Below are positions 1 to 15,481 of a stretch of DNA of 32,000 nt, in pieces (positions within the stretch are counted from its first letter, which is position 1; every line of letters starts with the position of its first letter). Origin of the DNA: Candidatus Lokiarchaeum ossiferum. Lineage in GTDB: Archaea; Asgardarchaeota; Lokiarchaeia; Sigyniarchaeales; Promethearchaeaceae. The position numbers and the translations under genes are program-made. Location of the stretch: positions 3,300,001-3,332,000 of the forward strand of contig CP104013.1 of the NCBI GenBank assembly GCA_025839675.1, written 5' to 3'. The notes under the pieces are model-generated. The model was not told the origin of the DNA. It ran no database searches and saw only the letters and a list, made by a program, of their open reading frames with translations.

Positions 1-104
1 CAAATGTCTTTTCACAAGCCGAAGAAATCGCGGATTGTACCATCCGGGGAGATGCACAAGCAACTCAAAGAATTCAAGGCGATGAAACTAAAAAAATTGG
101 TTAG
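1..104 (+). CDS. Partial CDS: C-terminal end of an upstream gene cut by the window edge (function unknown)
   Basis: Frame 3 is open from the window edge to TAG at 102-104 (..NVFSQAEEIADCTIRGDAQATQRIQGDETKKIG*). Its third codon positions are A/T-biased like the well-supported genes here. The competing track ORF 4..273 has G/C-rich third positions and would overlap the strongly supported start at 144 by 130 nt. Confidence 0.3.
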   Translation, partial: NVFSQAEEIADCTIRGDAQATQRIQGDETKKIG

Positions 105-143
105 AAAAGTTTTTTTTTGTAAAATAATACGAGGTAAAAAATC

Positions 144-941
144 ATGGCATATCACTGTCCAGAATGTGGAAATGAAATTGGATTTGGAGAATCTATTTGT
201 CCAAATTGTAAAGCAGATGTTACAGGCGTATGGGAACAAGCGTCTTCCCCTAAAAATTCGGGACCAAAAGTAGCACCAGGAATGGGAGGAATTGATCAAA
301 ATGACTCATCACCCTTCCCACCACCAGCAGGAGGATCTTTGAATTCCCCTTTCCCTCCAGCTGCAGGGAATTCACCGTTTCCTCCAGCAGCAAATATGAG
401 TTCACCATTTGCATCACCTAAAGAGAAGGTAGAAAAAAATACTTCAGACATAGGCTCCCCCTTCCCAGGATCAAATAATATGAATCCATTCGCCCCATCT
501 AGCGAAATAACTTCTCCTTTCCCTCCAACACCCCAAGAAAGCACACCATTTCCACCAACTGCACCAGCATCATCACCTTTTCAACAAATTCAAGGTCCAT
601 TTCTTGAAATTGCTCGAATTGGAGGAAAAATAGACATTCCAGAAGGAGAATTACGATTAGGAAGAGACGAAATACAAGGAGTTGCAACTATTGCCCTACC
701 TGATTTAAATGCTTACAAAAACATCTCTCGTAAACGAGCAAATAGTGAACATTTCATACTAAGAAAAAAGGGAAATGTTGTAACAATAGAAGACAGAGGA
801 AGTACCAATGGAACCTACATGGGAACAGAAAAGATAACTGGAACAAATCCTCGAACTTTGAAAAATGGAGATAAAATAGTCCTTCCAATTGAAGAACATG
901 GAAAAATGGTACAGCTAGAAATGATTTTCAAAATAAAGTAA
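144..941 (+). CDS. Zn-ribbon / Pro-rich [ST]PFP-repeat / FHA-domain protein (ArnA-like architecture)
   Basis: ATG has GAGGT 9 nt upstream. The N-terminus carries a CPEC-x10-CPNC zinc ribbon. Residues 56-153 hold about 10 copies of an [ST]PF(P) motif. The C-terminus shows FHA hallmarks: LRLGRD, NSEHFIL, GSTNGTYMG, NGDKIVLP. Confidence 0.9.
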   Translation: MAYHCPECGNEIGFGESICPNCKADVTGVWEQASSPKNSGPKVAPGMGGIDQNDSSPFPPPAGGSLNSPFPPAAGNSPFPPAANMSSPFASPKEKVEKNTSDIGSPFPGSNNMNPFAPSSEITSPFPPTPQESTPFPPTAPASSPFQQIQGPFLEIARIGGKIDIPEGELRLGRDEIQGVATIALPDLNAYKNISRKRANSEHFILRKKGNVVTIEDRGSTNGTYMGTEKITGTNPRTLKNGDKIVLPIEEHGKMVQLEMIFKIK

Positions 942-979
942 AATTTTTTTAATTTAATAAAATAAGGCAGAATAGATTA

Positions 980-2260
980 ATGATGGGACAAAGTAAGATT
1001 GAATTCATATTGACTTGTGCTTTTTGTGGTGAAATGAATGAATTTACTAAAGAAGAATTATACGAAAGTGAAAAAGAAACAGATACGTTTAAGGAAAAAT
1101 ACTGCTTAGAGTGCAATGAACCCCTCACAATGATATGCCCTTCTTGTTTAAATATTTTTGAAGTTGAGGATAATTTTAGAACAAATAATTTCTTTCAAGT
1201 TTTACCCACATTTTGGAACCCAACCCCGTCTCCTTTAGACGAATTAATTCCTAACATTTTAAAATCATGGAATATATATGAAGAACAAGCAAAATATCTG
1301 ACAAGTGAGACATTCCGATTAAGTCAAAAAGAATTTTTAGAAGCAATCCCCAATTTACTTTCAGACATCAAGGTTCTTAAGCAGGAACTTATTTCATTAG
1401 CAAAAATTTCAGAAGTTTCTCCTTTAGAGAAGGATTTCAAAAAACTAGAGAAGGGAATTCAAAAATGTACAGAAGAATGCGCGTCAATTCTAGCGAGCAT
1501 TGAGGATGTATCCAAAGCAGTTAATGAAAAGAAAGAAAAGCAGTTAAAAAAACATGTCCCATTTATGGACATTCTACCAAATTTCCAAGAGTATATCGAG
1601 CAAGTGAAAAAGATTAGAGAAAAGGAAATTGAAGACGAAATTAACTCACTAAAACCTGGATATGAAAAGGTTAAAAATAATATTAAACAAGATCCAACAT
1701 TTTATAGAAATATTTGCCCGATTTGCCAGAAAATGATTTTCACAATTAATCATCAGGTCTACACAATGGGAAAATCTGATGAAAAATTAAGCCATATTAG
1801 AAATTTAGCTGAATACTACCAACAATCTCAACCAAAAAGTACATTTACACGCACATTAATGTTAAATATCAAAATTCATATTGAAAAAGACCAGCTATAT
1901 GAATTTCATGGGGACTTAGCGTTAGTACTTCATGAGAATGAAAACCAAGTAATTGGACGAGATCTTCTGAGGGAAATTGAATATATTGAACCTGAAAGTG
2001 AAGAAATATTGTTTGATGAAAATGATCCTCTAGCCAGAGTTTCAAATAGTCAATTTTCTATTCAAAAAAAAGGGGATCAAATTATTTTAACTGGAATGAA
2101 ATTTGATGATAGAAGAGTAGGAGTATTCTTTAATTCTATGAAACATGATATTCGCAAAGAAAATCCAGACGGAATTCAAATCAATTCCGGAGATCAAATC
2201 TTTATTCCATTAATACAAGAAAAGGATAACCCCAATTATATAGAAATATCAATACTATAG
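980..2260 (+). CDS. Multi-Zn-ribbon coiled-coil protein with divergent FHA-like C-terminus
   Basis: 426-aa ORF, 38 nt after the previous gene. It has N-terminal CAFC, CLEC and CPSC knuckles plus a later CPIC. The middle is K/E-rich and heptad-like. The C-terminus (VIGRD ... VSNSQFSIQKKGDQIILTG ... INSGDQIFIP) follows the FHA pattern but lacks the canonical His and NG. Confidence 0.75.
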   Translation: MMGQSKIEFILTCAFCGEMNEFTKEELYESEKETDTFKEKYCLECNEPLTMICPSCLNIFEVEDNFRTNNFFQVLPTFWNPTPSPLDELIPNILKSWNIYEEQAKYLTSETFRLSQKEFLEAIPNLLSDIKVLKQELISLAKISEVSPLEKDFKKLEKGIQKCTEECASILASIEDVSKAVNEKKEKQLKKHVPFMDILPNFQEYIEQVKKIREKEIEDEINSLKPGYEKVKNNIKQDPTFYRNICPICQKMIFTINHQVYTMGKSDEKLSHIRNLAEYYQQSQPKSTFTRTLMLNIKIHIEKDQLYEFHGDLALVLHENENQVIGRDLLREIEYIEPESEEILFDENDPLARVSNSQFSIQKKGDQIILTGMKFDDRRVGVFFNSMKHDIRKENPDGIQINSGDQIFIPLIQEKDNPNYIEISIL

Positions 2261-2279
2261 GGATGAAATGTGAAATTTT

Positions 2280-3893
2280 ATGCAAGTAATAAAGAATCAG
2301 CTATTTTATTGTACAGAATGCTATCATGTGTTTTACGATTTACCGTCAGAAAAAAAATGTGCAATTTGTCATAATGAAATATTGGAACAAGATACAATAT
2401 CTGACCTAGATATTTTAACATGCGAAACGTGCCATAGTTTGTACACTCTCCAAAAATCGGGTGAAATTATACTCAATAAGGAAGGAAATATTAATCATTT
2501 ATGTTCATGTAAAAATCAATGTCCAACAAATTCAATTCTTAGTATCGGACAACAGGAATCTTATTTGGGGAATATTGTACTAGCGGATATATTTAAATGT
2601 TCAAATTGTGGAGCAATTTCCTTTAGAAATTTAGAAAATTCACAGAAAAATTGTAGCGAATGCAATTCTCGATTTGTATCTCCATTACATTGGGATCCAA
2701 AAACCCAAAAAACTTTTTTTCGATGTGCTAATCCAGATCACAAAATTCGATTAAAATTACGAGATTTGATAATAAATAACAACAAAATTATCAGTAGTGA
2801 GATTAATAAAATAAAACAAAAAGAAATCGGATTGCAGAAGGAATACATTCGTTTAAAACACGAATTACAGGTTAAATATGAGAATAAAAATTTACTCAAA
2901 AAAATCAAGTCTTTTCAGAAAGGAAAACTAAATTTTGAAAATGATCAGAACAACTTGAATATATGGGCAAAGATAGAGAGATTAAAGCTTTATAGTTATT
3001 TACGACCTATTGGTTTAAGATGTTCAGTTTATCGCATGAAAAATGATAATGACAAAATAAGTTTTGAAAGAACATCTGATGGATGTGGAGCCATTGCTCA
3101 TTTGAAGATCCGAAAAATAATAATTGCTCCAGATGGGACCGTGATAGAACGAAAATCAGAGCCAAAACAGGGATCTCCAGGACAGATTGAAAAAGACTTG
3201 CTACTAAGCAGCTCAACATTAAATGTTGAAGGTTTGAAAATAAATCATCCAATACCAAAATGGATTAATGAATCTGAGATTTCACTTGTCAATGATCAAT
3301 CTGAATCAATATTCACCCAAATCTTGCGGAATCAACCAATAACTGAAAATCCAATTCAAGTTGAAAATCAAGTAGTGATGACTGAAGAAGTAATTAGAAA
3401 TGCTTATGACTCTCTACCAGATTTAAAAGAAAATCAATTATATATTTTCTTCCAGATTAAATTCAAAAAAATGGATTCTGAAAATTATACCCTGGATGCA
3501 TTCGGAGTGATTCCAATTGAATTTGAAAAAAATAATTTCAGATTTCAATTAGGACGGAAACATCTTCTCCAAGCATTCTGGAAGGAACAATCAAGAATAG
3601 AAAAAAACCCCCTTTATTTTAATGGAATAACTGAATCTACCGAAGAATCATACCAGTTTGGTATCACACAAAGAGAAAATGAAATGTTTTTACTTCCAGG
3701 AAAGAATAACTTGTCAAAAAATCTGATATCTGCAGAAGAAAATGCAAAATCGGAATTAATTAAAGAGATTTCTATTCAAAAAATCAATAAATTGACCATT
3801 AATGGTAAATACGCATATAATAAACCACATGAAAGAACCTTTTCGAATATTCAATTTGTTTTTTCATTTAAACAAGGAGGAATAAGTAATTGA
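2280..3893 (+). CDS. Multi-Zn-ribbon coiled-coil protein, possible degenerate FHA-like C-terminus
   Basis: 537-aa ORF, 19 nt after the previous gene. It has at least five CxxC knuckles (CTEC, CAIC, CETC, CSNC, CSEC). The central segment is coiled-coil-like (KIKQKEIGLQKEYIRLKHELQ). The C-terminus carries FQLGRK ... LTINGKY. Function unknown. Confidence 0.7.
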   Translation: MQVIKNQLFYCTECYHVFYDLPSEKKCAICHNEILEQDTISDLDILTCETCHSLYTLQKSGEIILNKEGNINHLCSCKNQCPTNSILSIGQQESYLGNIVLADIFKCSNCGAISFRNLENSQKNCSECNSRFVSPLHWDPKTQKTFFRCANPDHKIRLKLRDLIINNNKIISSEINKIKQKEIGLQKEYIRLKHELQVKYENKNLLKKIKSFQKGKLNFENDQNNLNIWAKIERLKLYSYLRPIGLRCSVYRMKNDNDKISFERTSDGCGAIAHLKIRKIIIAPDGTVIERKSEPKQGSPGQIEKDLLLSSSTLNVEGLKINHPIPKWINESEISLVNDQSESIFTQILRNQPITENPIQVENQVVMTEEVIRNAYDSLPDLKENQLYIFFQIKFKKMDSENYTLDAFGVIPIEFEKNNFRFQLGRKHLLQAFWKEQSRIEKNPLYFNGITESTEESYQFGITQRENEMFLLPGKNNLSKNLISAEENAKSELIKEISIQKINKLTINGKYAYNKPHERTFSNIQFVFSFKQGGISN

Positions 3894-4774
3894 GTTCAGA
3901 TTCAGAACAATTTAAAATTTGTCGCCAATGTCACGTAGTTTATAAGAAATTATCTCAAAAATTTTGCGGAAATGGGTGTCAAAATAAACCCCCTTTTTTT
4001 ATAGAAGGAAAAAAACGCAATTCCATAGAACAACGTGAGATAATTCTTAATAAAAATGAGGAAAATATAATCCGATGGGTGTGTATTAGTTGTAAAAAAG
4101 AATATACAGAAAAAGAATTGCAAGAAATCGAATATATTTGTGAATGTAATGCAAAAAATGATTTTTACCCATTTACATTTAAGTCTTGCGCTAATGTGGA
4201 GTGTAAATCTTCTGATAACTTCCATTCTCTTCCACTTGAAGCAAAAGCTTGTGATTTATGTGGAAAAACCAACTTTATAATTAATAAGAGTAAATCTATG
4301 CAAGATTTAATTCCAAATCTCCCCAATCGGACAGATCATTCAGAAGAATGGGATCTCGAAAAATTTGATTTCTTTGAAGATTTGGCAGAAGAACGAAAAA
4401 ACCGAAACCTTCCGTCTATTACCTTTACTATCCTCAATAATAATTTAAAATATATTCTTTTTGGTGAAGGAAAAGTGATTTCCATGTATGATATCATAAG
4501 AGATGCAAATGGATTCACTCCAGATTCGATTTATGAACATTTACTTGAAAAATATCCTAAAGAAACAACGATGTTTGATATTAAATATAATAGCGTTACA
4601 GAAGAATATACTTTCAAATCAATCATAAGTATGAAAGAATTTGAGTTAGATCCAAGATTTAATCCGAAATCTAAAGCAATCATCCGAGAAGCAGGAATAG
4701 AATTTAATCTTCCAGAAGGAAAATTACTAGAATTTCGTGGTGGAATATTCAAAATCCACATTTGGGTTTATTAG
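3890..4774 (+). CDS. Multi-Zn-ribbon protein, beta-rich C-terminal domain (possibly degenerate FHA-like)
   Basis: TTG start overlaps the upstream stop (TTGA at 3890-3893), with GGAGG 9-10 nt upstream. Cys motifs: CRQC/CGNGC, CISC/CEC, CANVEC/CDLC. The C-terminal ~110 aa have strand-like periodicity but no GR, SxxH or NG residues. Confidence 0.7.
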   Translation: MSSDSEQFKICRQCHVVYKKLSQKFCGNGCQNKPPFFIEGKKRNSIEQREIILNKNEENIIRWVCISCKKEYTEKELQEIEYICECNAKNDFYPFTFKSCANVECKSSDNFHSLPLEAKACDLCGKTNFIINKSKSMQDLIPNLPNRTDHSEEWDLEKFDFFEDLAEERKNRNLPSITFTILNNNLKYILFGEGKVISMYDIIRDANGFTPDSIYEHLLEKYPKETTMFDIKYNSVTEEYTFKSIISMKEFELDPRFNPKSKAIIREAGIEFNLPEGKLLEFRGGIFKIHIWVY

Positions 4775-4805
4775 TTTTTTGATAAATTAAAGGGAAAAAA
4801 TAAAA

Positions 4806-6149
4806 ATGGCAAATCAAGGAATCTTAAAAAAAGGAGAAAAAATCCAGATCAATAAAAATCGATATACTATCGTAAAACAAATTGGTGATGGAGGTTTTGG
4901 TGAGGTTTATGAGGGTAAAAATGTTAAAACAGGCCAAAAAGTAGCTATAAAATTGTTTAAATCGGCAGCTTTCACGAATCCAGCGGAATCAAAAATGTAT
5001 TGGGAACGAGAGAGAGATATTACTGCGGCAACTGGAGGATATCCAAAAAAACATATGGAGTATATTGAATCTTACGAAGATAAAAGCGATCGGAGTAATC
5101 CAAAATTTTACATCGTCCTAGGGTTTGTTGAAAATGCAACCACATTGAAAGCTTGGTTCAATGATAATTTAAGATCGGCCAAACCTCTTAGCGTGGAAGA
5201 TATGATTCAAAAAATATTTTTGCCTCTTTGTGATTTTATGTATTATGCTCAAACGAAAGGGGCAATTCATCGAGATTTTACTTTCAATAATATCATGATT
5301 GTTCAAGAAAAAAAAGATCCTCTACCAATTGTGATCGATTGGGGAGGAGGAAAAATGTTTGATCCGGTAACTTTGACAGATGAACCCCCGTTGATTGATG
5401 ATATGGAAGGATCTGGGACGGTAATAATTACACCTGGCTTTTTTGCTCCAGAAATAATAATGCAAAAACCCCCTTTACCCCAAACAGATATTTATATGTT
5501 TGGAGCAGTATTGTTTTATGCTTTAACCAATGGTTATACACGTGTAAAACCTACAATTTCATCAGATTATATTCTTCATCCTCAAGATTATAATATGAAT
5601 GTATCAGACACCCTAAATGATGTTGTAGAGAAATGCACTCAATATGAACCTAAAGATCGATTTAGAACTTTTAATGAAATAAAGGAGGCATTACAACAAC
5701 ATTTGGATGGAAATATTAGTGGATTAAATCAATTACCATCAATTGAATCGGGTAATTCCTTTATTTTGCGTATTAAAAATAATAATGCAATAGTTCAACT
5801 CAACCCTCTGAATATGGCTTTGGAAGATGGGAAGAACATTAGAATTGGCCGAGAATTAATGATAGAATCAGCCGCTTGGAAAGAAGCATATAAAGGAGTA
5901 TTCAGAGGTATAACACGGTGTAAAGCTAACGGAGTAGATCGCCCTAGAGAACAATTCTTCTTAGGATATAGTAAAGCAAAAAATATTTTTTACATCCATG
6001 AAGGGAGAAATTCAAATCCTACCTATCTTAACGGACAACAGTTACCAGCAGGTGAATGGATACCGATTCAAGTTAATAATGAAATTTCAATTAAAAGTAC
6101 CACAGTCAAAGGAATTTTCGAATTAATTTCAGTTTTAGATCTTAAATAA
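4806..6149 (+). CDS. Eukaryotic-type Ser/Thr protein kinase fused to a C-terminal FHA domain
   Basis: Kinase motifs: GDGGFGEVYEG (Gly loop), VAIK, HRDFTFNN (catalytic loop), DWG (DFG position), FFAPE (APE), DIYMFGAVLFYALTNG. The C-terminus carries IRIGRE ... NPTYLNGQQL ... NNEISI (FHA). Confidence 0.9.
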   Translation: MANQGILKKGEKIQINKNRYTIVKQIGDGGFGEVYEGKNVKTGQKVAIKLFKSAAFTNPAESKMYWERERDITAATGGYPKKHMEYIESYEDKSDRSNPKFYIVLGFVENATTLKAWFNDNLRSAKPLSVEDMIQKIFLPLCDFMYYAQTKGAIHRDFTFNNIMIVQEKKDPLPIVIDWGGGKMFDPVTLTDEPPLIDDMEGSGTVIITPGFFAPEIIMQKPPLPQTDIYMFGAVLFYALTNGYTRVKPTISSDYILHPQDYNMNVSDTLNDVVEKCTQYEPKDRFRTFNEIKEALQQHLDGNISGLNQLPSIESGNSFILRIKNNNAIVQLNPLNMALEDGKNIRIGRELMIESAAWKEAYKGVFRGITRCKANGVDRPREQFFLGYSKAKNIFYIHEGRNSNPTYLNGQQLPAGEWIPIQVNNEISIKSTTVKGIFELISVLDLK

Positions 6150-6168
6150 CTATTCAAGGTGAGAAAAA

Positions 6169-7023
6169 ATTTCAAAAAACTATGGAATAATATGTGATGT
6201 TGGAGGAAAGGGAAAGGGTAATCAAGATAGTGCATTTTTTACTGAGTTTGATCTAATAATTGCCCCTGGAGATCAAGAATCAAAACAATTTTCATATAAG
6301 TGCATTCTCTCGCTGGTTTGTGATGGTGTTTCAGCATCTTCTCATGGTGAAAAAGGGTCAACATTTGTGATTCGGCATCTTTCTTCAAAAATAATGAATT
6401 ATCTATACACGAATAATTTTCAATTACAAAACGTTCATGAGAGATTACTGAAATATATCAATGAGACTAATTTGGAATTATTACAAGAGTTTAAACAAGA
6501 AATTGAAAAGGAAAAAGTACCAAAAACAACTTTAGTTGGAGTATTAGTAATTGGACAGTGGTTATGGACTTTCAATATCGGAGATAGTAGATCTTTTGTA
6601 ATTAAAGATCTTTTAATCAGTCAAATCTCAGTCGATGATATTGGTACAGGGGCCACACATGAAATAACTCAAGCTTTAGGTCAAGTGCCATTATCTCCAC
6701 ATGTTTCTGTTTTTAATTGGGCATTTGAAGGAGATTATACTGCAGAAAATATAGCATTTGATCACAATTATTATTTTCTTATTTGTTCAGATGGTTTAAC
6801 TGATAAGGTGAGTAGTGAAGAAATTTTAAAAATTCTAACCGATCCTAATAACGATGGTTCTGTTCAGGAAAAAGTGGAATCATTGTATATTTTAACGATG
6901 GAACGAAAGATAGACGATAATGTAAGCATCATTGCAGTAGATCTAGCACAATACTTCAAGAATCTTTCTCCAATCCAAATAATTAAACTATCATACCCCA
7001 AGAGGAAGCCAGATAATGAGTGA
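6169..7023 (+). CDS. PP2C-family Ser/Thr phosphatase (start codon problematic: ATT 6169 or A6 frameshift after GTG 6159; first canonical start is GTG 6367)
   Basis: The frame is open from 6163. Positions 6181-6366 encode conserved PP2C N-terminal motifs (YGIICDVGGKGKGNQDSAFF, LVCDGVSASSHGEKGS). Downstream motifs: NIGDSRSF, ICSDGLTD, DDNVSIIAVD. A strong SD, AAGGTGAG, lies at 6156-6163. Confidence 0.75.
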   Translation: MSKNYGIICDVGGKGKGNQDSAFFTEFDLIIAPGDQESKQFSYKCILSLVCDGVSASSHGEKGSTFVIRHLSSKIMNYLYTNNFQLQNVHERLLKYINETNLELLQEFKQEIEKEKVPKTTLVGVLVIGQWLWTFNIGDSRSFVIKDLLISQISVDDIGTGATHEITQALGQVPLSPHVSVFNWAFEGDYTAENIAFDHNYYFLICSDGLTDKVSSEEILKILTDPNNDGSVQEKVESLYILTMERKIDDNVSIIAVDLAQYFKNLSPIQIIKLSYPKRKPDNE

Positions 7024-8155
7024 AAATGAAGAAAAAAAAACCCCCCAAAAATTGATTAATTCCGGATGGAATTTTATTGATTTTCCAAATTCTACTGGTT
7101 TTTCTCTTTTGAATGATGAATTAAGAAACGAGATAAATGAAAATAGTCTCAACACATATTATGTTATCATAGATATTTTTGAAAAACTAATAGAACAATG
7201 TGGTAATAATTTTGATTTTTCAAATAATAGCATCAACTTTGAGCAATATTTGGATTTTTTTCAAAAAGTAAATTTGATGATACCTAAGTTATCTCATAAA
7301 ATAATAATTGAAGATATTCACGAAATGGTTTATTTCATTGGTGATACTCACGGAGCAATTAAGGAAACTTATCAATTGATACAATTCTTTGTTAGAAAAA
7401 TAAGAATTTTCCCAAAGTTAAAAATTATTTTTGTTGGTGATTATGTTGACAGAAATCCAAATGATTTAGAAAACTTAGCATTAATTCTTTCATTTTCTTT
7501 ACTTTATCCTGAAAATGTAATATTAATTCGCGGAAATCATGAAGACCGCTTAATAAACCAACATTATGGATTTATGGACAATTTACTTAGGACTTTTTAT
7601 AATCAAGCCGAATACTTGTATGATGAGATTATTCAAATTTTTATGAAATTTCCTATCGCCCACATTAGCCAAATTCATTCGAAAGATGGAAAAACAGCAA
7701 GAGTTCTAACAGTACACGGAGGAATACCAATTGATCATGCAAATTTTCTTGAACCAGTAATTTTGGATGAGATCAAGGATTCATTAATATGTGAAGTGGA
7801 AGAATCTAAGGATATGGATCCATACACAACCTCGATGTTATGGTCAGATCCTGATGAGATGATCAGAGGAATTTTAACTGGAGATCACCTCCAAGGAAGA
7901 ACAAGATTTGGAGCACCAGTATTTGACGCATTCATGCAGGGAAATCATTTGGATCTGCTCGTTCGTGGCCATCAGAAATGGTCTGAAGGGTTTAAAATAT
8001 TGTTTGGTGGGAGACTGTATAGTCTATTTTCAACTGCATCTTATGATGGAAAACCAAGATTTCAACCAAAAATTTTGAAACTCATATATGGGAAAGCACC
8101 TAAGTTAATCTCAATTGAGAAAAATTCTTTAGATAGTGAATTGGAGGAAAAATAA
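7016..8155 (+). CDS. PPP-family (PP1/PP2A-like) Ser/Thr metallophosphatase with ~100-aa N-terminal extension
   Basis: Motifs GDTHG, GDYVDRN, RGNHE, VHGG and RGHQ occur in canonical order. The start overlaps the PP2C stop by 8 nt. Confidence 0.9.
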   Translation: MSENEEKKTPQKLINSGWNFIDFPNSTGFSLLNDELRNEINENSLNTYYVIIDIFEKLIEQCGNNFDFSNNSINFEQYLDFFQKVNLMIPKLSHKIIIEDIHEMVYFIGDTHGAIKETYQLIQFFVRKIRIFPKLKIIFVGDYVDRNPNDLENLALILSFSLLYPENVILIRGNHEDRLINQHYGFMDNLLRTFYNQAEYLYDEIIQIFMKFPIAHISQIHSKDGKTARVLTVHGGIPIDHANFLEPVILDEIKDSLICEVEESKDMDPYTTSMLWSDPDEMIRGILTGDHLQGRTRFGAPVFDAFMQGNHLDLLVRGHQKWSEGFKILFGGRLYSLFSTASYDGKPRFQPKILKLIYGKAPKLISIEKNSLDSELEEK

Positions 8156-9360
8156 TGAATAATAAGGACGAATTCGGTGAAATTGATGAGTATAATGATA
8201 GAACTAGAAAAATAGGCCATGAATCTTATAAATCACTACAACCTACATTTATCAAGATCGAAGAAACCCAAACTCAGATGATTCTTGATGGAAAAACTCA
8301 AAAACTAGGTGAATCGACAGAATCTACAATTGTGGAAGAATTTTGGGAGTATTATTTACAATTTTCTCCATCTAATCTCCCAAATTTTGCATCATATTAT
8401 GGAAATGAAAGTGCAGAATTGAAAATGACTATTTTGATTCGAGTTTTTCAAGATTTTTGCTTGGAACGAGTGTATCCTCCAAGTTTTCCAGTTCCAATTA
8501 TTCAAAAAGCATTTAAAAATTCAAAAAACAATTCTTCACATGCAGCAAAATTCTTTTTCGTAGGAGATACTCATGGTTCTATGATCGATACAATGAGATT
8601 AGTTCCATTTTTTGTTAAAGAAATCGAAAAAGGAATTTTAAATGACTATAAAGTAAAAATCGTCTTCATTGGAGATTTTATCGACAGGAACGACCTCGAT
8701 ATTCACAACATTCTTTATTTAATGACATTTAATTTACGATACCCCAATAATGTGTTATTATTGCGCGGTAATCATGAAGAAATATCTGTTTGCGCACACT
8801 ATGGATTTGGAAAGAAAGTGGTAGATAGGTTTTCACAAATGTTATTTGCCTCATTTTGCAATCTTTTTAAGGATTTACCTTTAATGGCAATTTATCACTG
8901 TCAACAAGGGAGTGTATTATGTCTCCATGGAGGAATCCCAATATATGTTGATGAAGAGACCGGGAAGTACAAAATACTTAACATTACAACATATCAATAT
9001 GACAACAGACATGTTTGGTTAGATGATATGGATAAAATATCGCAACAAATTCTTTGGAATGATCCAATTATAAATTATGATCCAGAAAATATGCCACCGT
9101 TTTTTACCAGTAAACGAGGAATGGGATATTGGTTCGGAGAAGAAGTTTTCGACGAATTCTGCGAGAAAAATAAGATTAGTTTAATATTTCGAGGGCATCA
9201 AGTCTTTTTAGATGGGATTCATAAGGAGTTTCGTCAACGATTTATCACTATTTTTTCAGCAAGCGATTATGCTAAAAAAAAAATTAAAGCACGCTTCATT
9301 GAAATGAATTCAGATGATATTTTCAATTACAAAGTCCATGTTATCCAAGATCTACCGTAA
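8155..9360 (+). CDS. PPP-family (PP1/PP2A-like) Ser/Thr metallophosphatase, paralogue of the preceding gene, ~135-aa N-terminal extension
   Basis: Motifs GDTHG, GDFIDRN, RGNHE, LHGG, RGHQ. There is a TAATG stop/start overlap at 8153-8157, with GGAGG 8 nt upstream. Confidence 0.9.
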   Translation: MNNKDEFGEIDEYNDRTRKIGHESYKSLQPTFIKIEETQTQMILDGKTQKLGESTESTIVEEFWEYYLQFSPSNLPNFASYYGNESAELKMTILIRVFQDFCLERVYPPSFPVPIIQKAFKNSKNNSSHAAKFFFVGDTHGSMIDTMRLVPFFVKEIEKGILNDYKVKIVFIGDFIDRNDLDIHNILYLMTFNLRYPNNVLLLRGNHEEISVCAHYGFGKKVVDRFSQMLFASFCNLFKDLPLMAIYHCQQGSVLCLHGGIPIYVDEETGKYKILNITTYQYDNRHVWLDDMDKISQQILWNDPIINYDPENMPPFFTSKRGMGYWFGEEVFDEFCEKNKISLIFRGHQVFLDGIHKEFRQRFITIFSASDYAKKKIKARFIEMNSDDIFNYKVHVIQDLP

Positions 9361-9374
9361 TTCTTTTTTTTTTT
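9361..9374 (+). terminator. Oligo-T tract (archaeal-type terminator candidate) closing the phospho-signalling operon
   Basis: TTCTTTTTTTTTTT begins immediately after the stop at 9358-9360. Archaeal RNA polymerase terminates at oligo-T runs. Confidence 0.45.
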
Positions 9375-9418
9375 GAGCTTATTGCAAAAGAGAAAACCTC
9401 AATTATTTTCAAATCTTT

Positions 9419-11065
9419 ATGTGGTTTATGGGATATTATTCATACGATATTAAAGATTATGATGCTGGTGGGAGAATTGGGCAATTAAAGTTGGGAGATA
9501 AAATTCTAGATACTCCAAATTTGTTTCCAGTTGTGAATCCCTTTCGGAATTCAATCTCCCCCCGCCGACTCTATGATCATTTTGGCGCTCAGTGCTTGTT
9601 TACTAATGCATATATAATCTATAAAAATCGAGAAAATAATCCTGATATTATTAGTAAAAAACTCCATGAGCACCTAGATTTTCCCGGAATTATCGCAACA
9701 GATTCAGGAGGATTTCAAGATTATATGTATGCGGGAGATATAAAACTTACGCCAGAAGAAATTGAACCTTTTCAAGAAAATTTGGGAAGTGATTGTCCTG
9801 TTATCCTAGATATACCTGTTCAAACAACTGATTCATATGAAGAAGCGAAATGGAAAGTAGATGTTACTTTGAAAAGAGCAGAAGAGAATATCCAACGAAG
9901 AACTAGGACAGATACTGCGTGGTTTGGTCCAATACATGGTTCAATTTATCCTGATTTACTAAAACGAAGTGCACTAGGTATGTCAAAATATGATTATGGC
10001 ATATATGCAATTGGGGGAATAGTGAAAACTTTTATTGACTATCGTTTTGACCTGGATGTTGCAATATTATTAGAAGTTCGTAAATGGTTAAGAGCTGATC
10101 GTCCGTTACACATGTTTGGTTTGGGACTTCCAGCCTTCTTTTCTTTAGCTGTAGCATGTGGAGCAGACACTTTTGATTCGGCAGCATATATTTTATATGC
10201 TAAAGATGATCGATACTTTACGTTGACGGGTACACGCAATATAAATGATTTGATTGAATTACCTTGCCATTGCCCTATTTGCACATCTTTTTCAGCAAAC
10301 GAATTAAAAAAACTACCAAAACAAGAAAGAATTACAGCAGTAGCAGAACACAATTTATATCACTCTTATTCAGAATTAAAAGCAATAAAGCAAGCAATTC
10401 ATGAGGGGTCTTTGTGGGATTTGGTAGAACATCGAGTCCATGCGCATCCAAAATTGATAAAAGCATTGAAAAAAACACAAGAATATCCCGATTATTTTGA
10501 TGGCATGATTAACCTAAATAAGACTAGAGGACAAAAATATTTAACTTCGTTTTCGTTCCATAGGGCACATATTAGAAGATATAGAAATAAAGTATCCCAT
10601 TTTAAAATTCCAAAAGATAGAAACACTGTAATTATTTTACCTGAATTAGATTTGCCAAGTTCAAATGGTATTTCTGTAATAGAATGGATAAAGGAATTAA
10701 AAAACATGGAATCTTATGAGAAGAAACAAATAGCTATCATGAGCAACCTCATGGGTTTTATTCCATTAGAATTAAGTGAGATGTTTCCAGCAGGTCAACA
10801 TGAAGGCTCTGGCGATATTTCTGAAAATAACTCCCATAAAAAAATTATTCTTGAAGACTTGATCAAGATGCTTTCGATAAATGTGAAAACCGTAGATAGC
10901 ATACAAATACTAATTCCAAAGGAATTCATTTCAGAATATAATGAAGTAGAGCCTTTTGATCCATTTTCCCATATTATTTCATATATAGAACCAGCAATTC
11001 AAGAAAGATTTTCTGGTATAAATGTTGCTATTTTTAATTCAATTGAGGAGCTAATAAATGGGTGA
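9419..11065 (+). CDS. tgtA: Archaeosine tRNA-guanine transglycosylase (ArcTGT)
   Basis: The TGT catalytic region carries ATDSGGFQ. The zinc site is CHCPIC ... H. The length (548 aa) and N-terminus (GRIGQLKL) are TGT-like. I cannot recognise a C-terminal PUA domain by eye. Confidence 0.9.
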   Translation: MWFMGYYSYDIKDYDAGGRIGQLKLGDKILDTPNLFPVVNPFRNSISPRRLYDHFGAQCLFTNAYIIYKNRENNPDIISKKLHEHLDFPGIIATDSGGFQDYMYAGDIKLTPEEIEPFQENLGSDCPVILDIPVQTTDSYEEAKWKVDVTLKRAEENIQRRTRTDTAWFGPIHGSIYPDLLKRSALGMSKYDYGIYAIGGIVKTFIDYRFDLDVAILLEVRKWLRADRPLHMFGLGLPAFFSLAVACGADTFDSAAYILYAKDDRYFTLTGTRNINDLIELPCHCPICTSFSANELKKLPKQERITAVAEHNLYHSYSELKAIKQAIHEGSLWDLVEHRVHAHPKLIKALKKTQEYPDYFDGMINLNKTRGQKYLTSFSFHRAHIRRYRNKVSHFKIPKDRNTVIILPELDLPSSNGISVIEWIKELKNMESYEKKQIAIMSNLMGFIPLELSEMFPAGQHEGSGDISENNSHKKIILEDLIKMLSINVKTVDSIQILIPKEFISEYNEVEPFDPFSHIISYIEPAIQERFSGINVAIFNSIEELING

Positions 11066-11543
11066 AAATAACGAAAAAGCAATTTTAGATGAAATTTATG
11101 CCTTTGGACACAAAAATGTTCTAGGAACCCATAGAAGTACTATAGAAATAACAACTGAGAAATTTCTCACACCTAGGGGTAATTGTATTATTGCAACACG
11201 AAGTACCAAAGCAGTTGGGAATTTTTCTCCAGAATTAAAAAAAGCGATACAAAAAGGAGCCAAAATCAAGGTTTCTCTCTCAGCTGGCCCATATCAAGAT
11301 TTTTTCTTTGGTTTTGGAAACAAATTTTTAAATATGACTTCTGAAATATCCATTGTTTTTCGTTTAAGTGAATTTATTTCAGATCGAACTGCATTGATCA
11401 ATTGTTCGAAAAATGCAGCGGAAATAAACCGAAATTTAATTTCATATCTTCAAAATCCGCATAATCAATTGCATGTTCGATTTTATGAAGAAAAAAAATG
11501 TCAAAATGATGAATTATGTCTGAAATTCCCCGAAAATCTTTAA
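11058..11543 (+). CDS. DUF371-like archaeal protein of unknown function
   Basis: 161 aa. FGHKNVLGTHRSTIEITTEKFLTPRGNCIIA matches my memory of the DUF371 signature (H.N..atH.tT.E.Tke..LT.rGdCIi). It overlaps tgtA by 8 nt, with GAGGAG upstream. Confidence 0.6.
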   Translation: MGENNEKAILDEIYAFGHKNVLGTHRSTIEITTEKFLTPRGNCIIATRSTKAVGNFSPELKKAIQKGAKIKVSLSAGPYQDFFFGFGNKFLNMTSEISIVFRLSEFISDRTALINCSKNAAEINRNLISYLQNPHNQLHVRFYEEKKCQNDELCLKFPENL

Positions 11544-12652: not shown

Positions 12653-12683
12653 GGATTAGAATTAGAATAGAAAAAAAGTAAAA

Positions 12684-15067: not shown

Positions 15068-15481
15068 ATGACACAATTTGGCGGAGACATTGGATTAGAA
15101 CCGAGTGATATTATGAAATTGGAACCAGAAATCACTTATATTACTGGAAATACAAATATTGAAGCAATTGCACTGGTTACTGACACAGGATACCAGATCG
15201 CTTATGCTAGTCTACCAACATATACCGTAGACTCCGATGCTCTTTCAGGTATTGCTTCTGCACTTATGATGACAGGAAAAATGGCTATGACCAGTGTGTT
15301 TAATGAATCTCTTTCGGAAGCAATCATCCGAGCTGATAACGGTTATATTGTTGTTACGAATGCGGGTCGGTTTGTATTAGTAGGTGCAGGAAGAGATATT
15401 AAAAATTTGATGAATACAGTGAAAGTTTTCCGTATTGCTGCCCAACGTATTGAAACAAATTTTCCTTCAATTTCCGATTAA
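15068..15481 (+). CDS. Roadblock/LC7 (MglB-like) domain protein
   Basis: 137 aa. Pattern IEAIALVTDTGYQIAYASL ... DALSGIASALMMTGKMA ... AIIRADNGYIVVTNAGRFVLVGAG is typical of Roadblock/LC7. Confidence 0.8.
   Translation: MTQFGGDIGLEPSDIMKLEPEITYITGNTNIEAIALVTDTGYQIAYASLPTYTVDSDALSGIASALMMTGKMAMTSVFNESLSEAIIRADNGYIVVTNAGRFVLVGAGRDIKNLMNTVKVFRIAAQRIETNFPSISD

What the first reader, a model, noticed from the sequence alone, without database searches (positions are those of the whole stretch)
144..9374. Nine-gene Zn-ribbon/FHA, kinase and triple-phosphatase operon: a dense phospho-threonine reader/writer/eraser module
Nine consecutive same-strand genes are separated by 38 nt or less, or overlap (TTGA at 3890-3893, an 8-nt overlap at 7016-7023, TAATG at 8153-8157). 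A T11 tract closes the cluster. The content is purely signalling: (1) a Zn-ribbon + [ST]PFP-repeat linker + canonical FHA protein; (2-4) three proteins with several CxxC knuckles each, coiled-coil segments in two of them, and C-terminal ~100-aa beta-rich modules grading from FHA-like (IGRD..S..Q..GD.I) to unrecognisable; (5) an ePK-type kinase fused to FHA; (6) a PP2C phosphatase; (7, 8) two PPP-family phosphatases. Known analogues are smaller: the Sulfolobus ArnA (Zn-finger+FHA)/ArnB/ArnC/ArnD/PP2A network, actinobacterial FhaA/FhaB-PstP-PknA/B, and T6SS Fha1-PpkA-PppA. I know of no described module that joins up to five FHA-type readers, one kinase and three erasers of two unrelated folds in one transcription unit, with no obvious output gene. 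My hypothesis is a self-contained pThr-dependent assembly switch whose Zn-ribbon proteins are the scaffold or output.
Basis: partly seen in the sequence, partly recalled or inferred. Interest (0 to 1): 0.85.

Follow-up and report, generated by a model that had tools for sequence, protein, structure and literature searches.

The report
Lokiarchaeal FHA–kinase–phosphatase signalling gene cluster
This is a real, tightly packed set of phospho-threonine signalling genes in the Asgard archaeon Lokiarchaeum ossiferum, best read as an enlarged version of the Sulfolobus ArnA/ArnB switch that also carries its own kinase and three phosphatases; that makes it an interesting variant of a known theme, not a new kind of system.

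Summary
The cluster is real. The window is Ca. Lokiarchaeum ossiferum. The stated range holds eight + strand ORFs, not nine:
- a Zn-ribbon/SPFPP-repeat/canonical FHA protein;
- three Zn-ribbon-rich proteins of families found only in Lokiarchaeia;
- an ePK kinase with a divergent FHA tail;
- a PP2C;
- two eukaryote-type PPP phosphatases.

The overlaps and the T11 tract are exactly as described.

First, the window cuts off a ninth gene upstream, a vWA protein whose closest solved relative is Sulfolobus ArnB. With gene 1 (Zn-ribbon plus FHA, the ArnA architecture) it forms an ArnB/ArnA-like pair. Second, the PP2C has a 1-nt insertion just after its ancestral GTG start, so no canonical start codon remains.

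Evidence that the middle proteins are FHA-like:
- ORF980: profile comparison, motif register and one orthologue hitting Pfam FHA.
- ORF2280: profile comparison only; the structure search found nothing.
- ORF3890: AlphaFold model plus Foldseek.

Only gene 1, and partly ORF980, keep the pThr-binding residues.

Gene order is invariant in every relative found, but so are the flanking housekeeping genes. A conserved oligo-T follows gene 1.

Verdict: an expanded, co-encoded ArnA/ArnB-type phospho-switch. It is a new variant of a known kind, of moderate to good interest.

The parts
1..104 (+). 3' end (last 33 codons plus TAG) of the upstream vWA gene (384 aa, NEF87_002797). It is ArnB-like. The invariant tail ...ADCTIRGDAQATQRIQGDETKKIG has Thr codons at 39-41, 63-65 and 87-89, and two of these fit pTxx[I/L].
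   Evidence: locus L001; window position = L001 position minus 4200. Pfam VWA 3.4e-13. Best PDB relative is ArnB 8S05_A, E 1.1e-10 as a single sequence and 1.6e-15 as a profile; the identity of 8S05 comes from PMC12852372. The tail is invariant in 8 orthologues.
110..118 (+). T9 tract directly after the vWA stop codon. A possible partial archaeal terminator. It is followed by a GAGGT Shine-Dalgarno-like motif upstream of gene 1.
   Evidence: T5-T9 tracts occupy the same position in 5 of the 6 genomes compared.
144..941 (+). Gene 1 (265 aa, NEF87_002798), with the ArnA architecture. It has a C4 zinc ribbon (C5, C8, C19, C22), a linker with nine xPF[P/A/Q] repeats (aa 55-148, nt 306-587), and a canonical FHA domain (GR 173-174, SEH 201-203, NG 222-223).
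   Evidence: Pfam FHA 8e-11, 42.6 bits. Alignment A7. Repeats counted, motifs located. PDB profile hits: Rad53 FHA1 1.5e-3 and ArnA 5A8I 0.03.
944..950 (+). T7 tract immediately after the gene 1 stop. Oligo-T (T6 to T11) is conserved at this position in all six genomes compared. A candidate attenuator or terminator separating vWA-gene 1 from the rest.
980..2260 (+). Gene 2 (426 aa). It has CxxC pairs at 13/16, 42/45, 53/56 and 246/249, a coiled-coil segment at about aa 95-240, and a C-terminal FHA-like domain at aa 295-426 (nt 1862-2257) with invariant GR (326-327), SNSQ (355-358), RVG and GD.
   Evidence: No Pfam family. Alignment A1. Coiled-coil PDB hits. hhalign against the gene 1 FHA: P 2e-4, in register; score 29.3 versus shuffles 12.7±3.0, 0/80; 0.009 with default settings. 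One of 9 orthologue C-termini hits Pfam FHA at 6.3e-5. The family has only 19 clusters among 1.84 billion representatives.
2280..3893 (+). Gene 3 (537 aa). It has three C4 zinc ribbons (aa 11-128), a coiled-coil hairpin (aa 160-238) flanked by further Cys/His, a disordered linker (aa 270-366), and a confidently modelled beta-rich C-terminal domain (aa about 370-537, nt 3387-3890). That domain is related by profile to the gene 1 FHA and to the kinase tail.
   Evidence: Alignments A3 and A5. AF2 model. Foldseek against PDB gave no significant match and no FHA in the top 50. hhalign against the gene 1 FHA: 29.3 versus 11.6±2.4 (0/80). hhalign against the kinase C-terminus: 29.2 versus 12.4±2.1 (0/80). 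No Pfam FHA hit in 11 orthologue C-termini.
3890..4774 (+). Gene 4 (294 aa). It has three zinc ribbons (invariant Cys at 11/14/26/30, 65/68/84/86 and 100/105/121/124), a disordered linker (aa 146-169), and a C-terminal domain with an FHA-like fold (aa 170-294, nt 4397-4771). That domain lacks the GR and SxxH pThr-binding motifs.
   Evidence: Alignment A6. AF2 mean pLDDT 85.5, with the C-terminal domain above 90. The top Foldseek PDB hits are almost all FHA domains (CEP170, APLF, MDC1, PNKP, SLMAP, aprataxin, Mek1, TIFA) plus SMAD MH2; E 1.2e-3 to 1e-1, probability about 1.0, TM about 0.5. There is no sequence-level signal: hhalign versus shuffles 8/80.
4806..6149 (+). Gene 5 (447 aa, NEF87_002802). 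An ePK Ser/Thr kinase: G-loop 27-34, VAIK K49, HRD 155-157 with N162, DWG 178-180, APE 214-216. It is fused to a divergent FHA-like C-terminal domain (aa 305-447, nt 5718-6146). It is the most conserved protein of the block (66-97% identity across relatives).
   Evidence: Pkinase 5.7e-24. Alignment A10, motifs. Pfam FHA on the C-terminus alone scores 3.3e-3 and 18.2 bits, below the 20.7-bit cut-off; 7 of 8 orthologues hit FHA, best 2.5e-4. Identities.
6159..6197 (+). Remnant of the ancestral PP2C start. GTG at 6159 opens a 12-codon ORF that is out of frame with the PP2C because of one extra A in the run 6164-6169. An AGGTGA Shine-Dalgarno-like motif lies at 6157-6162, and an in-frame ATT lies at 6169-6171.
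   Evidence: The sequence is identical in five assemblies. The gene is annotated as truncated in both NCBI genomes.
6163..7023 (+). Gene 6, a PP2C phosphatase (conceptual 286 aa). All catalytic motifs are present: NQD 20-22, DGVS 54-57, GDSR 140-143, SDG 209-211, DDN 251-253. There is no canonical start codon in frame before 6367.
   Evidence: PP2C_2 1.2e-9. NCBIfam Stp1 PP2C 1.5e-25. 90% identical over 286 aa to the intact orthologue in L007. Motifs.
7016..8155 (+). Gene 7 (379 aa), a eukaryote-type PPP phosphatase (GDTHG, GDYVDRN, GNHE, HGG) with an N-terminal extension of about 100 aa.
   Evidence: Metallophos 4.2e-19. Best PDB hits PP1, PP5 and PP2A, about 1e-26. Motifs.
8155..9360 (+). 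Gene 8 (401 aa), a second eukaryote-type PPP phosphatase (GDTHG, GDFIDRN, GNHE, HGG) with an N-terminal extension of about 130 aa. It is a paralogue of gene 7 (about 32-35% identity).
   Evidence: Metallophos 4.5e-25. Best PDB hits PPT/PP5, PP1 and PP2A, 1e-28 to 1e-24. Cross-hits between genes 7 and 8.
9364..9374 (+). T11 tract after gene 8. A likely terminator in this genome (T8 in the 77-97% relative), but absent in Promethearchaeum, where arcTGT follows after 9-21 nt.

Best explanation
The locus is an expanded, fully co-encoded ArnA/ArnB-type phospho-threonine assembly switch found only in Lokiarchaeia.

The conserved unit has nine genes:
- an ArnB-like vWA 'hub' (upstream; only its tail lies in the window);
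- an ArnA-like Zn-ribbon plus canonical FHA adaptor (gene 1);
- three further proteins with the same logic of Zn-ribbon(s), linker and FHA-like domain (genes 2-4);
- one ePK kinase with a divergent FHA tail (gene 5);
- three erasers (a PP2C and two PP1/PP2A-like PPPs).

Proposed mechanism, inferred by analogy with Sulfolobus ArnA/ArnB:
1. In the unphosphorylated state the Zn ribbons hold loose complexes with the vWA protein.
2. The kinase phosphorylates threonines, most plausibly the invariant C-terminal tail of the vWA protein (T372-Q-R-I and T380-K-K-I, which fit pTxx[I/L]).
3. The canonical FHA of gene 1, and perhaps the Arg/Ser-retaining FHA of gene 2, then bind tightly.
4. The phosphatases reset the switch.

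Genes 3 and 4 and the kinase tail have FHA-derived domains that have lost the pThr pocket. They probably act as phospho-independent docking or scaffold modules, with coiled coils in genes 2 and 3, that link the switch to targets not yet known.

What is shown: gene content, domain homology, conservation and motif retention.
What is inferred: substrates, binding order and output.
For: - The source organism and the upstream vWA gene were established by exact-protein look-up.
- The vWA family profile hits ArnB (8S05_A) at 1.6e-15. The next hit is nine orders of magnitude weaker. The two proteins are almost the same length (384 versus 387 aa) and the MIDAS motif is intact.
- Gene 1 has a C4 ribbon, a linker and a Pfam FHA with the full pThr set. 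It sits 39 nt downstream of the vWA gene.
- FHA-relatedness of genes 2-5 rests.
- The kinase, PP2C and both PPPs have complete catalytic motifs.
- The nine genes are contiguous and in the same order in all contigs long enough to judge: L001-L003, L005-L009, L012-L017, plus partial L010, L011, L019 and L021. These include P. syntrophicum MK-D1 and Ca. Harpocratesius.
- The only insertions seen lie at the borders: a hexapeptide-repeat gene before vWA, and a TPR gene after gene 8.
- The kinase (66-97% identity) and vWA (61-96%) are at least as conserved as the housekeeping arcTGT (48-90%).
- The ArnA/ArnB mechanism is taken from PMC6509490, PMC12852372 and PMC7472852.
Against: - The gene 1 FHA is no closer in sequence to ArnA than to other FHA domains (Rad53 FHA1 1.5e-3 versus ArnA 0.03).
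- Similarity between vWA and ArnB was demonstrated only over the vWA domain. The beta-sandwich and helical-bundle part is untested, and the helical tail looks shorter.
- All occurrences are in one clade, where the flanking housekeeping genes are equally syntenic. Co-location is therefore not independent evidence of co-function.
- A conserved oligo-T after gene 1 argues against a single obligatory transcript.
- The FHA assignment for gene 3 failed the structural test, and gene 2 was not modelled.
- The PP2C start is disrupted in this strain.
- No phosphorylation or interaction data exist for any of these proteins.
- In Sulfolobus the output of ArnA/B is archaellum regulation. No corresponding target is evident here.
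Confidence: 0.55

Rival explanations
1. The block is a syntenic neighbourhood and not one functional module. It may comprise two or three transcription units (vWA-gene 1; genes 2-4; kinase and phosphatases, possibly running on into arcTGT-DUF371-TYW2). The kinase and phosphatases would be general cellular enzymes with many substrates elsewhere, and the Zn-ribbon proteins would have unrelated roles.
For: - Oligo-T tracts directly follow vWA, gene 1 and gene 4 in this genome. The tract after gene 1 is conserved in all six genomes compared.
- Flanking housekeeping genes (u482, AAA_18, arcTGT, DUF371, TYW2) are just as syntenic.
- In Promethearchaeum gene 8 is only 9-21 nt from arcTGT.
- The extreme conservation of the kinase suits a pleiotropic enzyme.
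Against: - Five of the nine proteins carry FHA or FHA-derived domains, next to one kinase and three phosphatases. This is hard to ascribe to chance.
- Start and stop codons overlap at three junctions.
- Insertions occur only at the block's borders.
- vWA plus Zn-ribbon-FHA is an experimentally established interacting pair in Sulfolobus (PMC6509490, PMC12852372).
Confidence: 0.2
2. The Zn-ribbon proteins (genes 1-4) are the output: phospho-regulated nucleic-acid-binding regulators of transcription or RNA. In this reading the module is a gene-expression switch, as proposed for S. islandicus ArnA in the DNA-damage response, and not a purely protein-assembly scaffold.
For: - There are ten or more predicted C4 ribbons across genes 1-4.
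- RanBP2-type and other ribbons can bind RNA or DNA (PMC6509490).
- S. islandicus ArnA acts as a global DNA-damage-response repressor (PMC10470591).
Against: - In the ArnAB co-crystal the ArnA zinc finger binds ArnB, not DNA, and the authors found no direct DNA binding (PMC12852372).
- No helix-turn-helix or other DNA-binding domain was detected.
Confidence: 0.15
3. It is a TerY-P-like conflict or anti-phage system: a vWA, PP2C and Ser/Thr-kinase triad with zinc ribbons, acting as a metal- or infection-sensing switch.
For: It has the same three core domains as the TerY-P triad, and Zn ribbons are abundant (PMC10542128). Bacterial vWA-STK-FHA-PP2C operons exist (bioRxiv 10.64898/2026.01.23.701218).
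Against: - No PADLOC defence model matches the vWA, PP2C, PPP or Zn-ribbon proteins; only generic kinase hits appear.
- The kinase is fused to an FHA-like domain, not a zinc ribbon or OB fold.
- The locus sits in a conserved core-genome context with strong purifying selection and no variability between genomes.
- The closest vWA relative is ArnB.
Confidence: 0.05

Closest known systems
Sulfolobus acidocaldarius archaellum regulatory network core: ArnA (Zn-finger plus FHA), ArnB (vWA plus beta-sandwich plus helical bundle), kinases ArnC/ArnD, phosphatase PP2A
   Same: - A vWA gene lies adjacent to a Zn-ribbon-linker-FHA gene.
- The vWA protein's closest solved relative is ArnB (E 1.6e-15), with the same length and an intact MIDAS motif.
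- Gene 1 has the full pThr-binding set.
- An ePK kinase and a PPP-type phosphatase take part.
- The vWA protein has a conserved Thr-bearing C-terminal tail, in the position where ArnB is phosphorylated.
   Different: - Here the kinase and three phosphatases (PP2C plus two PPPs) are encoded in the same block. In Sulfolobus they are dispersed.
- There are three extra Zn-ribbon/FHA-like paralogous architectures (genes 2-4, two with coiled coils), from families restricted to Lokiarchaeia.
- The kinase itself carries an FHA-like tail.
- Gene 1 has an SPFPP-repeat linker.
- The gene 1 FHA is not specifically ArnA-like in sequence.
- No archaellum link is evident.
TerY-P triad (vWA, PP2C and Ser/Thr kinase fused to a zinc ribbon; Anantharaman et al. 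2012, as summarised in PMC10542128) and bacterial vWA-STPK-FHA-PP2C operons (e.g. D. radiodurans DRA0331-0334)
   Same: Co-encoded vWA, kinase, PP2C and, in Deinococcus, FHA proteins, predicted or shown to form a push-pull phospho-switch.
   Different: - There are no sequence matches to TerY-P defence models.
- The kinase is fused to an FHA-like domain instead of a Zn ribbon or OB fold.
- Two additional eukaryote-type PPPs and four Zn-ribbon/FHA proteins are present.
- The context is a stable core genome, not a mobile or defence context.
Actinobacterial FhaA/FhaB-PstP-PknA/PknB and T6SS Fha1-PpkA-PppA modules
   Same: FHA reader(s), an ePK kinase and a PP2C eraser in one operon, with pThr-dependent complex assembly.
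   Different: - There is no cell-wall (RodA/PbpA) or T6SS gene nearby.
- There is no transmembrane sensor kinase.
- A vWA partner, Zn ribbons and PPP phosphatases are present here.

Membership tests
ArnA-type adaptor (gene 1) | N-terminal C4 zinc finger/ribbon plus C-terminal FHA with the pThr-binding Arg, Ser(xxHis) and Asn | tested here: met
   CPEC and CPNC at aa 5-22. Pfam FHA 8e-11. GR 173-174, SEH 201-203, NG 222-223, invariant in 7 orthologues.
ArnA-type adaptor (gene 1) | Encoded next to an ArnB-type vWA gene | tested here: met
   The vWA gene ends 39 nt upstream, in L001 and in all relatives.
ArnA-type adaptor (gene 1) | Specific sequence relationship to ArnA, closer than to other FHA proteins | tested here: not met
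   Profile A7 against PDB: Rad53 FHA1 1.5e-3, ArnA 5A8I 0.03.
ArnA-type adaptor (gene 1) | Phosphorylation-dependent binding to the vWA partner | not testable with these tools
   Needs biochemistry or multimer modelling.
ArnB-type vWA protein (upstream gene, tail in window 1-104) | vWA domain with intact MIDAS; ArnB as nearest characterised relative | tested here: met
   Pfam VWA 3.4e-13. DISGSM, GTT and SDGDPTD are invariant. 8S05_A scores 1.6e-15 and the next hit 2.4e-6.
ArnB-type vWA protein (upstream gene, tail in window 1-104) | Beta-sandwich plus C-terminal helical bundle carrying the phospho-threonines | tested here: inconclusive
   HMM similarity covers only aa 30-164. An invariant Thr-bearing tail exists.
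FHA domain (Pfam PF00498), gene 2 C-terminus | Significant match to the FHA profile or to a bona fide FHA family; conserved GR / SxxH / NG / GD motifs | tested here: inconclusive
   The window protein has no Pfam hit. One of 9 orthologues hits FHA at 6.3e-5. hhalign against the gene 1 FHA scores 29.3 versus 12.7±3.0 in shuffles, 0/80, but only P 0.009 with default settings. GR, SxxQ, G-T-F-x-N and GD are in register. The fold was not modelled.
FHA domain, gene 3 C-terminus | FHA fold or profile similarity | tested here: inconclusive
   hhalign against the gene 1 FHA and against the kinase tail is significant versus shuffles (0/80 each; P about 3-4e-4). Foldseek on the confident AF2 domain gave no FHA match, and there are no Pfam hits.
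FHA domain, gene 4 C-terminus | FHA (SMAD/FHA) fold | tested here: met
   AF2 pLDDT above 90. Foldseek top hits are FHA domains from ten or more different proteins, with probability about 1.0, E 1e-3 to 1e-1 and TM about 0.5. The pThr-binding motifs are absent.
FHA domain, kinase C-terminus | Pfam FHA at or above the gathering score | tested here: inconclusive
   The window protein scores 18.2 bits against a cut-off of 20.7. Seven of 8 orthologues hit FHA as the only family, best 2.5e-4. GR and N-x-T-x-L-N-G are kept; the phosphate-binding Ser is lost.
Eukaryotic-type protein kinase (gene 5) | G-loop, VAIK Lys, HRD-x4-N, D[FW]G, APE | tested here: met
   Pkinase 5.7e-24; all motifs invariant.
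PP2C/PPM phosphatase (gene 6) | PPM catalytic motifs and an intact ORF | tested here: inconclusive
   Motifs are complete and PP2C_2 scores 1.2e-9 on the conceptual product. The ancestral start is frameshifted and no canonical in-frame start exists.
PPP phosphatases (genes 7 and 8) | GDxHG, GDxVDR[GN], GNHE and HGG motifs; similarity to PP1, PP2A and PP5 | tested here: met
TerY-P triad / defence system | TerY-like vWA and cognate PP2C/STK models; kinase fused to a Zn ribbon or OB fold; mobile or defence-island context | tested here: not met
   PADLOC has no hit for vWA or PP2C. The kinase tail is FHA-like. The core-genome synteny is invariant.

The most novel reading that the evidence does not exclude
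The nine-gene block is a Lokiarchaeia-specific phospho-regulated assembly hub. Four Zn-ribbon/FHA-derived adaptors compete for one ArnB-like vWA core, whose vWA, beta-sandwich and helical architecture, together with a Zn-finger partner, has been likened to Sec23/24. Through the coiled coils and the SPFPP (FPPP-like) repeats, the hub would couple Ser/Thr phosphorylation to membrane or cytoskeleton remodelling. On this reading it would be a prokaryotic forerunner of eukaryotic PPP/ePK/FHA-controlled trafficking or cytoskeletal machinery, present in both cultured Asgard strains.
Probability: 0.08. Interest if true: 0.85.

Novelty: new variant of a known kind. Interest (0 to 1): 0.55.

Why it matters
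- Ser/Thr phospho-signalling in Asgard archaea is essentially uncharacterised, although eukaryotic PPP phosphatases have been traced to Asgard-like ancestors (PMC8249667).
- This locus puts one kinase, three phosphatases, a canonical pThr reader, four degenerate FHA derivatives and an ArnB-like hub next to each other. All are under strong purifying selection, and all are present in the two cultivated Lokiarchaeia (P. syntrophicum MK-D1 and L. ossiferum).
- That gives a compact, experimentally tractable entry point. The likely writer, erasers, reader and first substrate are all named by the genome.
- It also extends the ArnA/ArnB paradigm, so far confined to Sulfolobales, to the archaeal lineage closest to eukaryotes.
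- It defines three new Zn-ribbon/FHA-derived protein families.

Tried and rejected
- HMM-versus-sequence searches with the gene 2 full-length profile hit only coiled coils. Its C-terminal profile hit nothing relevant in PDB. In 1.84 billion representatives it hit only its own family; the single outlier, P0074, is an RTX-repeat protein.
- The kinase C-terminal profile against PDB found nothing.
- Bacterial promoter and terminator scans are uninformative for an archaeon.
- PADLOC gave no defence-system match.
- The genome-contig scan with the gene 2 profile returned only three Lokiarchaeial species.
- The metagenome scan with the kinase profile returned only orthologues (61-80% identity) or unrelated kinases (22-24%), with no intermediate lineages.
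- The idea that the hexapeptide-repeat gene found before vWA in some relatives had simply moved to 16841-17428 in this genome was rejected. The two proteins are only 28% identical, so they are paralogues.
- A -1 programmed frameshift at A_AAA_AAT was considered for the PP2C start and rejected. The shift needed is +1 (or loss of one A).

Full report
**Source and anatomy**

The window is from Candidatus Lokiarchaeum ossiferum. The proteins of ORFs 980, 2280 and 3890 match NCBI L. ossiferum proteins at 99-100% identity. Gene 1, the kinase and the upstream vWA protein are exact matches to NEF87_002798, NEF87_002802 and NEF87_002797.

Between 144 and 9360 there are eight + strand ORFs. The junction details are correct: TTGA at 3890-3893, an 8-nt overlap at 7016-7023, TAATG at 8153-8157 and T11 at 9364-9374. 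ORFs on the opposite strand are short and overlap the coding frames. Rfam finds nothing in the region.

**What the window edge hid**

Exact-protein look-up of the kinase returned longer contigs (L001-L004). A 384-aa vWA gene ends 39 nt upstream of gene 1, so window 1-104 is its 3' end. It has Pfam VWA (3.4e-13) and an intact MIDAS motif.

Its closest solved relative is chain 8S05_A: 1.1e-10 with the single sequence and 1.6e-15 with the family profile. The next hit is ITIH1 at 2.4e-6. 8S05 is the S. acidocaldarius ArnA-ArnB co-crystal (PMC12852372), and chain A is ArnB.

Gene 1 has the ArnA architecture, a C4 zinc ribbon, a linker and an FHA domain (Pfam FHA 8e-11), with invariant GR, SEH and NG. 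The block therefore begins with an ArnB/ArnA-like pair. By sequence, however, the gene 1 FHA is no closer to ArnA (0.03) than to Rad53 FHA1 (1.5e-3).

**The enzymes**

- Gene 5 is an ePK (Pkinase 5.7e-24) with all catalytic motifs invariant.
- Genes 7 and 8 are eukaryote-type PPPs. Their best PDB hits are PP1, PP5 and PP2A at 1e-24 to 1e-28, and both have GDxHG, GDxxDRN, GNHE and HGG.
- Gene 6 is a PP2C with complete motifs (PP2C_2 1.2e-9; Stp1-type 1.5e-25), but only as a conceptual translation from 6163.

In a 77-97%-identical relative the PP2C gene starts at a GTG. In L. ossiferum one extra A in the run 6164-6169 puts that GTG (6159) out of frame. The sequence is identical in the window and in four independent read-set assemblies. 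Both NCBI genome annotations call a truncated product of 209 or 236 aa. All orthologues have a canonical start 3-10 codons before the conserved YGIICDVGG.

The frame is otherwise undamaged, at 90% identity over 286 aa. An in-frame ATT lies 6 nt after an AGGTGA motif. Near-cognate initiation, A-run slippage and a recent inactivating mutation all remain possible. 'Triple phosphatase' is therefore uncertain for this strain but true for the clade.

**The three middle proteins**

None has a Pfam, NCBIfam or PADLOC family. All three families are small and were found only in Promethearchaeota/Lokiarchaeia: 14, 16 and 28 clusters at 90% identity. The gene 2 C-terminal profile finds 19 clusters at 50% identity among 1.84 billion representative proteins.

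All three follow the gene 1 logic of zinc ribbon(s), a linker and a beta-rich C-terminal domain. Genes 2 and 3 additionally have a coiled-coil hairpin inserted between Cys pairs.

*Gene 2.* The C-terminus has invariant GR, S-N-S-Q, R-V-G-T-F-x-N and GD, in the same order and spacing as gene 1.
- hhalign against the gene 1 FHA gives P 2e-4 with these motifs in register.
- The score is 29.3 against 12.7±3.0 for 80 column shuffles, and no shuffle reached it.
- With default settings P is 0.009.
- One of nine orthologue C-termini hits Pfam FHA at 6.3e-5.
I rate it a probable divergent FHA that keeps the phosphate-binding Arg and Ser.

*Gene 3.* The C-terminus is similar by profile to the gene 1 FHA (29.3 versus 11.6±2.4, 0/80) and to the kinase tail (29.2 versus 12.4±2.1, 0/80). 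It shares an iGRe...A.WKE...F.gIT...QF signature with the kinase tail. The AF2 domain is confident (pLDDT about 75-91). It has the same order of three strands, short helices and then six to seven strands as gene 4. Foldseek against PDB nevertheless gave no significant hit and no FHA in the top 50, and there is no Pfam FHA hit. This one is unresolved.

*Gene 4.* It has no sequence signal at all (8/80 shuffles). Its AF2 model is good (mean pLDDT 85.5, C-terminal domain above 90). The Foldseek PDB list is dominated by FHA domains (CEP170, APLF, MDC1, PNKP, SLMAP, aprataxin, Mek1, Far9, TIFA) and the related SMAD MH2 and IRF domains. Probability is about 1.0, E runs from 1.2e-3 to 0.1, and TM is about 0.5. 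It has an FHA-like fold without the GR and SxxH pocket.

*Kinase tail.* It hits Pfam FHA, and only FHA, in 7 of 8 orthologues (best 2.5e-4; window protein 18.2 bits, below the 20.7 cut-off).

'Reader' function is credible only for gene 1, and perhaps for gene 2.

**Conservation**

Every contig that carries any of these genes and is long enough carries the same order: u482 (a multi-pass membrane protein), AAA_18 NTPase, in some genomes a hexapeptide-repeat gene, then vWA, genes 1 to 8, arcTGT, DUF371 and TYW2. This holds for L. ossiferum, a 77-97% relative, Promethearchaeum syntrophicum MK-D1, another Promethearchaeum, Ca. Harpocratesius repetitus and several metagenomic lineages, down to about 33% identity in gene 3.

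Identity to the window protein:

| Protein | Identity (%) |
|---|---|
| kinase | 66-97 |
| vWA | 61-96 |
| arcTGT | 48-90 |
| PPPs | 46-92 |
| PP2C | 49-90 |
| gene 1 | 45-88 |
| genes 2-4 | 33-81 |

Two caveats apply. The housekeeping flanks are just as syntenic, so the conservation does not by itself prove functional linkage. No intermediate or rearranged versions were found.

Mild positive evidence for a nine-gene unit is that the only insertions seen lie at its borders. A hexapeptide-repeat gene sits before vWA in most relatives. A TPR gene sits after gene 8 in L014.

**Transcription signals**

Three of the six T-runs of seven or more bases in 1-13000 lie directly after stop codons: T9 after vWA, T7 after gene 1 and T11 after gene 8. 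A T6 follows gene 4. The oligo-T after gene 1 is conserved in all six genomes compared (T6 to T11). The tract after gene 8 is not. In MK-D1 and L008, arcTGT follows after 21 and 9 nt.

Shine-Dalgarno-like GGAGG and GGTGA motifs precede most internal starts. This pattern suggests a polycistronic arrangement with attenuation after the vWA-gene 1 pair rather than one sealed transcription unit. Only transcript mapping can settle it.

**Mechanism proposed**

In Sulfolobus, the ArnA zinc finger binds unphosphorylated ArnB loosely. ArnC then phosphorylates threonines in ArnB's C-terminal helical region, the ArnA FHA binds, and PP2A reverses this (PMC6509490, PMC12852372, PMC7472852).

The Lokiarchaeal vWA protein ends in an invariant tail...ADCTIRGDAQATQRIQGDETKKI (window 3-101). 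Two of its threonines are followed by Ile or Leu at +3. From general knowledge of FHA specificity, that is a preferred ligand context.

My inference is that the gene 5 kinase writes these sites and gene 1 (possibly also gene 2) reads them. The PP2C and the two PPPs erase them. Genes 3 and 4 and the kinase's own tail would provide phospho-independent FHA-derived docking surfaces. The Zn ribbons and coiled coils would make the scaffold.

The SPFPP repeats of gene 1 are mostly Ser-Pro: seven Ser, one Thr and one Asn in nine repeats. FHA domains are pThr-specific, so these repeats are poor FHA ligands. They may be phospho-acceptors or proline-motif ligands. The output remains unknown.

**Comparison and novelty**

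The closest characterised system is ArnA/ArnB with ArnC/D and PP2A. Related bacterial themes are the TerY-P triad of vWA, PP2C and a Zn-ribbon-fused kinase (PMC10542128) and the D. radiodurans vWA-STPK-FHA-PP2C operon.

The defence reading is disfavoured. No PADLOC models match, and the genomic context is core and invariant.

I found no paper in the searchable library that describes this Lokiarchaeal block. What is new is the degree of consolidation and expansion:
- one hub;
- one canonical and four derived FHA modules;
- one kinase;
- three erasers from two folds;
- three clade-restricted protein families.
It occurs in the archaeal lineage nearest to eukaryotes.

I classify it as a new variant of a known kind, with interest about 0.55. 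It is still a good experimental target, because both cultured Lokiarchaeia carry it.

Noticed in passing
window 6157-6197: The PP2C gene has lost its canonical start. One extra A in the A-run 6164-6169 frameshifts the ancestral GTG (6159). The rest of the frame is intact, and an in-frame ATT (6169) lies 6 nt after an AGGTGA Shine-Dalgarno-like motif. The sequence is the same in five assemblies, and both NCBI annotations call the gene truncated.
   Followed up: yes
window 1-104 (and L001 3150-4304): The window starts inside an ArnB-like vWA gene. Its invariant C-terminal tail, with three conserved threonines (codons at 39-41, 63-65 and 87-89; two in pTxx[I/L] context), lies in the first 101 nt of the window.
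   Followed up: yes
window 944-950; L007, L008, L012, L005 and L016 at the gene 1-gene 2 spacers: An oligo-T tract (T6 to T11) directly after the gene 1 stop codon is conserved in all six genomes compared. This suggests a conserved attenuator or terminator inside the cluster.
   Followed up: partly
window 306-587: The gene 1 linker has nine roughly 10-residue repeats centred on SPFPP (6-9 copies in orthologues). They are mostly Ser-Pro, so they are unlikely FHA ligands. The FPPP-like core resembles proline-rich ligands of EVH1 or profilin-type modules. This is from memory and was not tested.
   Followed up: partly
window 9419-12652: arcTGT, DUF371 and a TYW2/Trm5-type methyltransferase follow on the same strand with overlapping stops and starts. 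In Promethearchaeum arcTGT begins only 9-21 nt after the last phosphatase, so the signalling genes may be co-transcribed with tRNA-modification genes in some lineages.
   Followed up: partly
L001 996-3045 (upstream of the window): A 482-aa multi-pass membrane protein with no family assignment and a 198-aa AAA_18/adenylate-kinase-like NTPase always precede the vWA gene. Whether they belong to the module is unknown.
   Followed up: partly
window 4806-6149 versus 9419-11065: The kinase (66-97% identity across relatives, with the activation segment and C-lobe almost invariant) is at least as conserved as the housekeeping arcTGT (48-90%). This implies unusually strong constraint.
   Followed up: partly
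window 15522-15574 (-): Rfam reports a partial tRNA match (32.9 bits, model positions 8-63) that ARAGORN does not call. It may be an intron-containing or otherwise atypical archaeal tRNA.
   Followed up: no
window 15068-15481 (+), 17762-18676 (+), 18698-19654 (-): A Roadblock/LC7 protein, a TFB (TFIIB) gene and a Gtr1/RagA-like small GTPase lie a few kb downstream. The Roadblock and Rag-like genes are typical Asgard 'eukaryotic signature' genes.
   Followed up: no
window 7016-9360: The two PPP paralogues each carry an uncharacterised N-terminal extension of 100-130 aa. A published phylogeny places two Asgard PPP clusters next to the eukaryotic PPPs (PMC8249667). Whether these two genes represent those clusters was not checked.
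   Followed up: no
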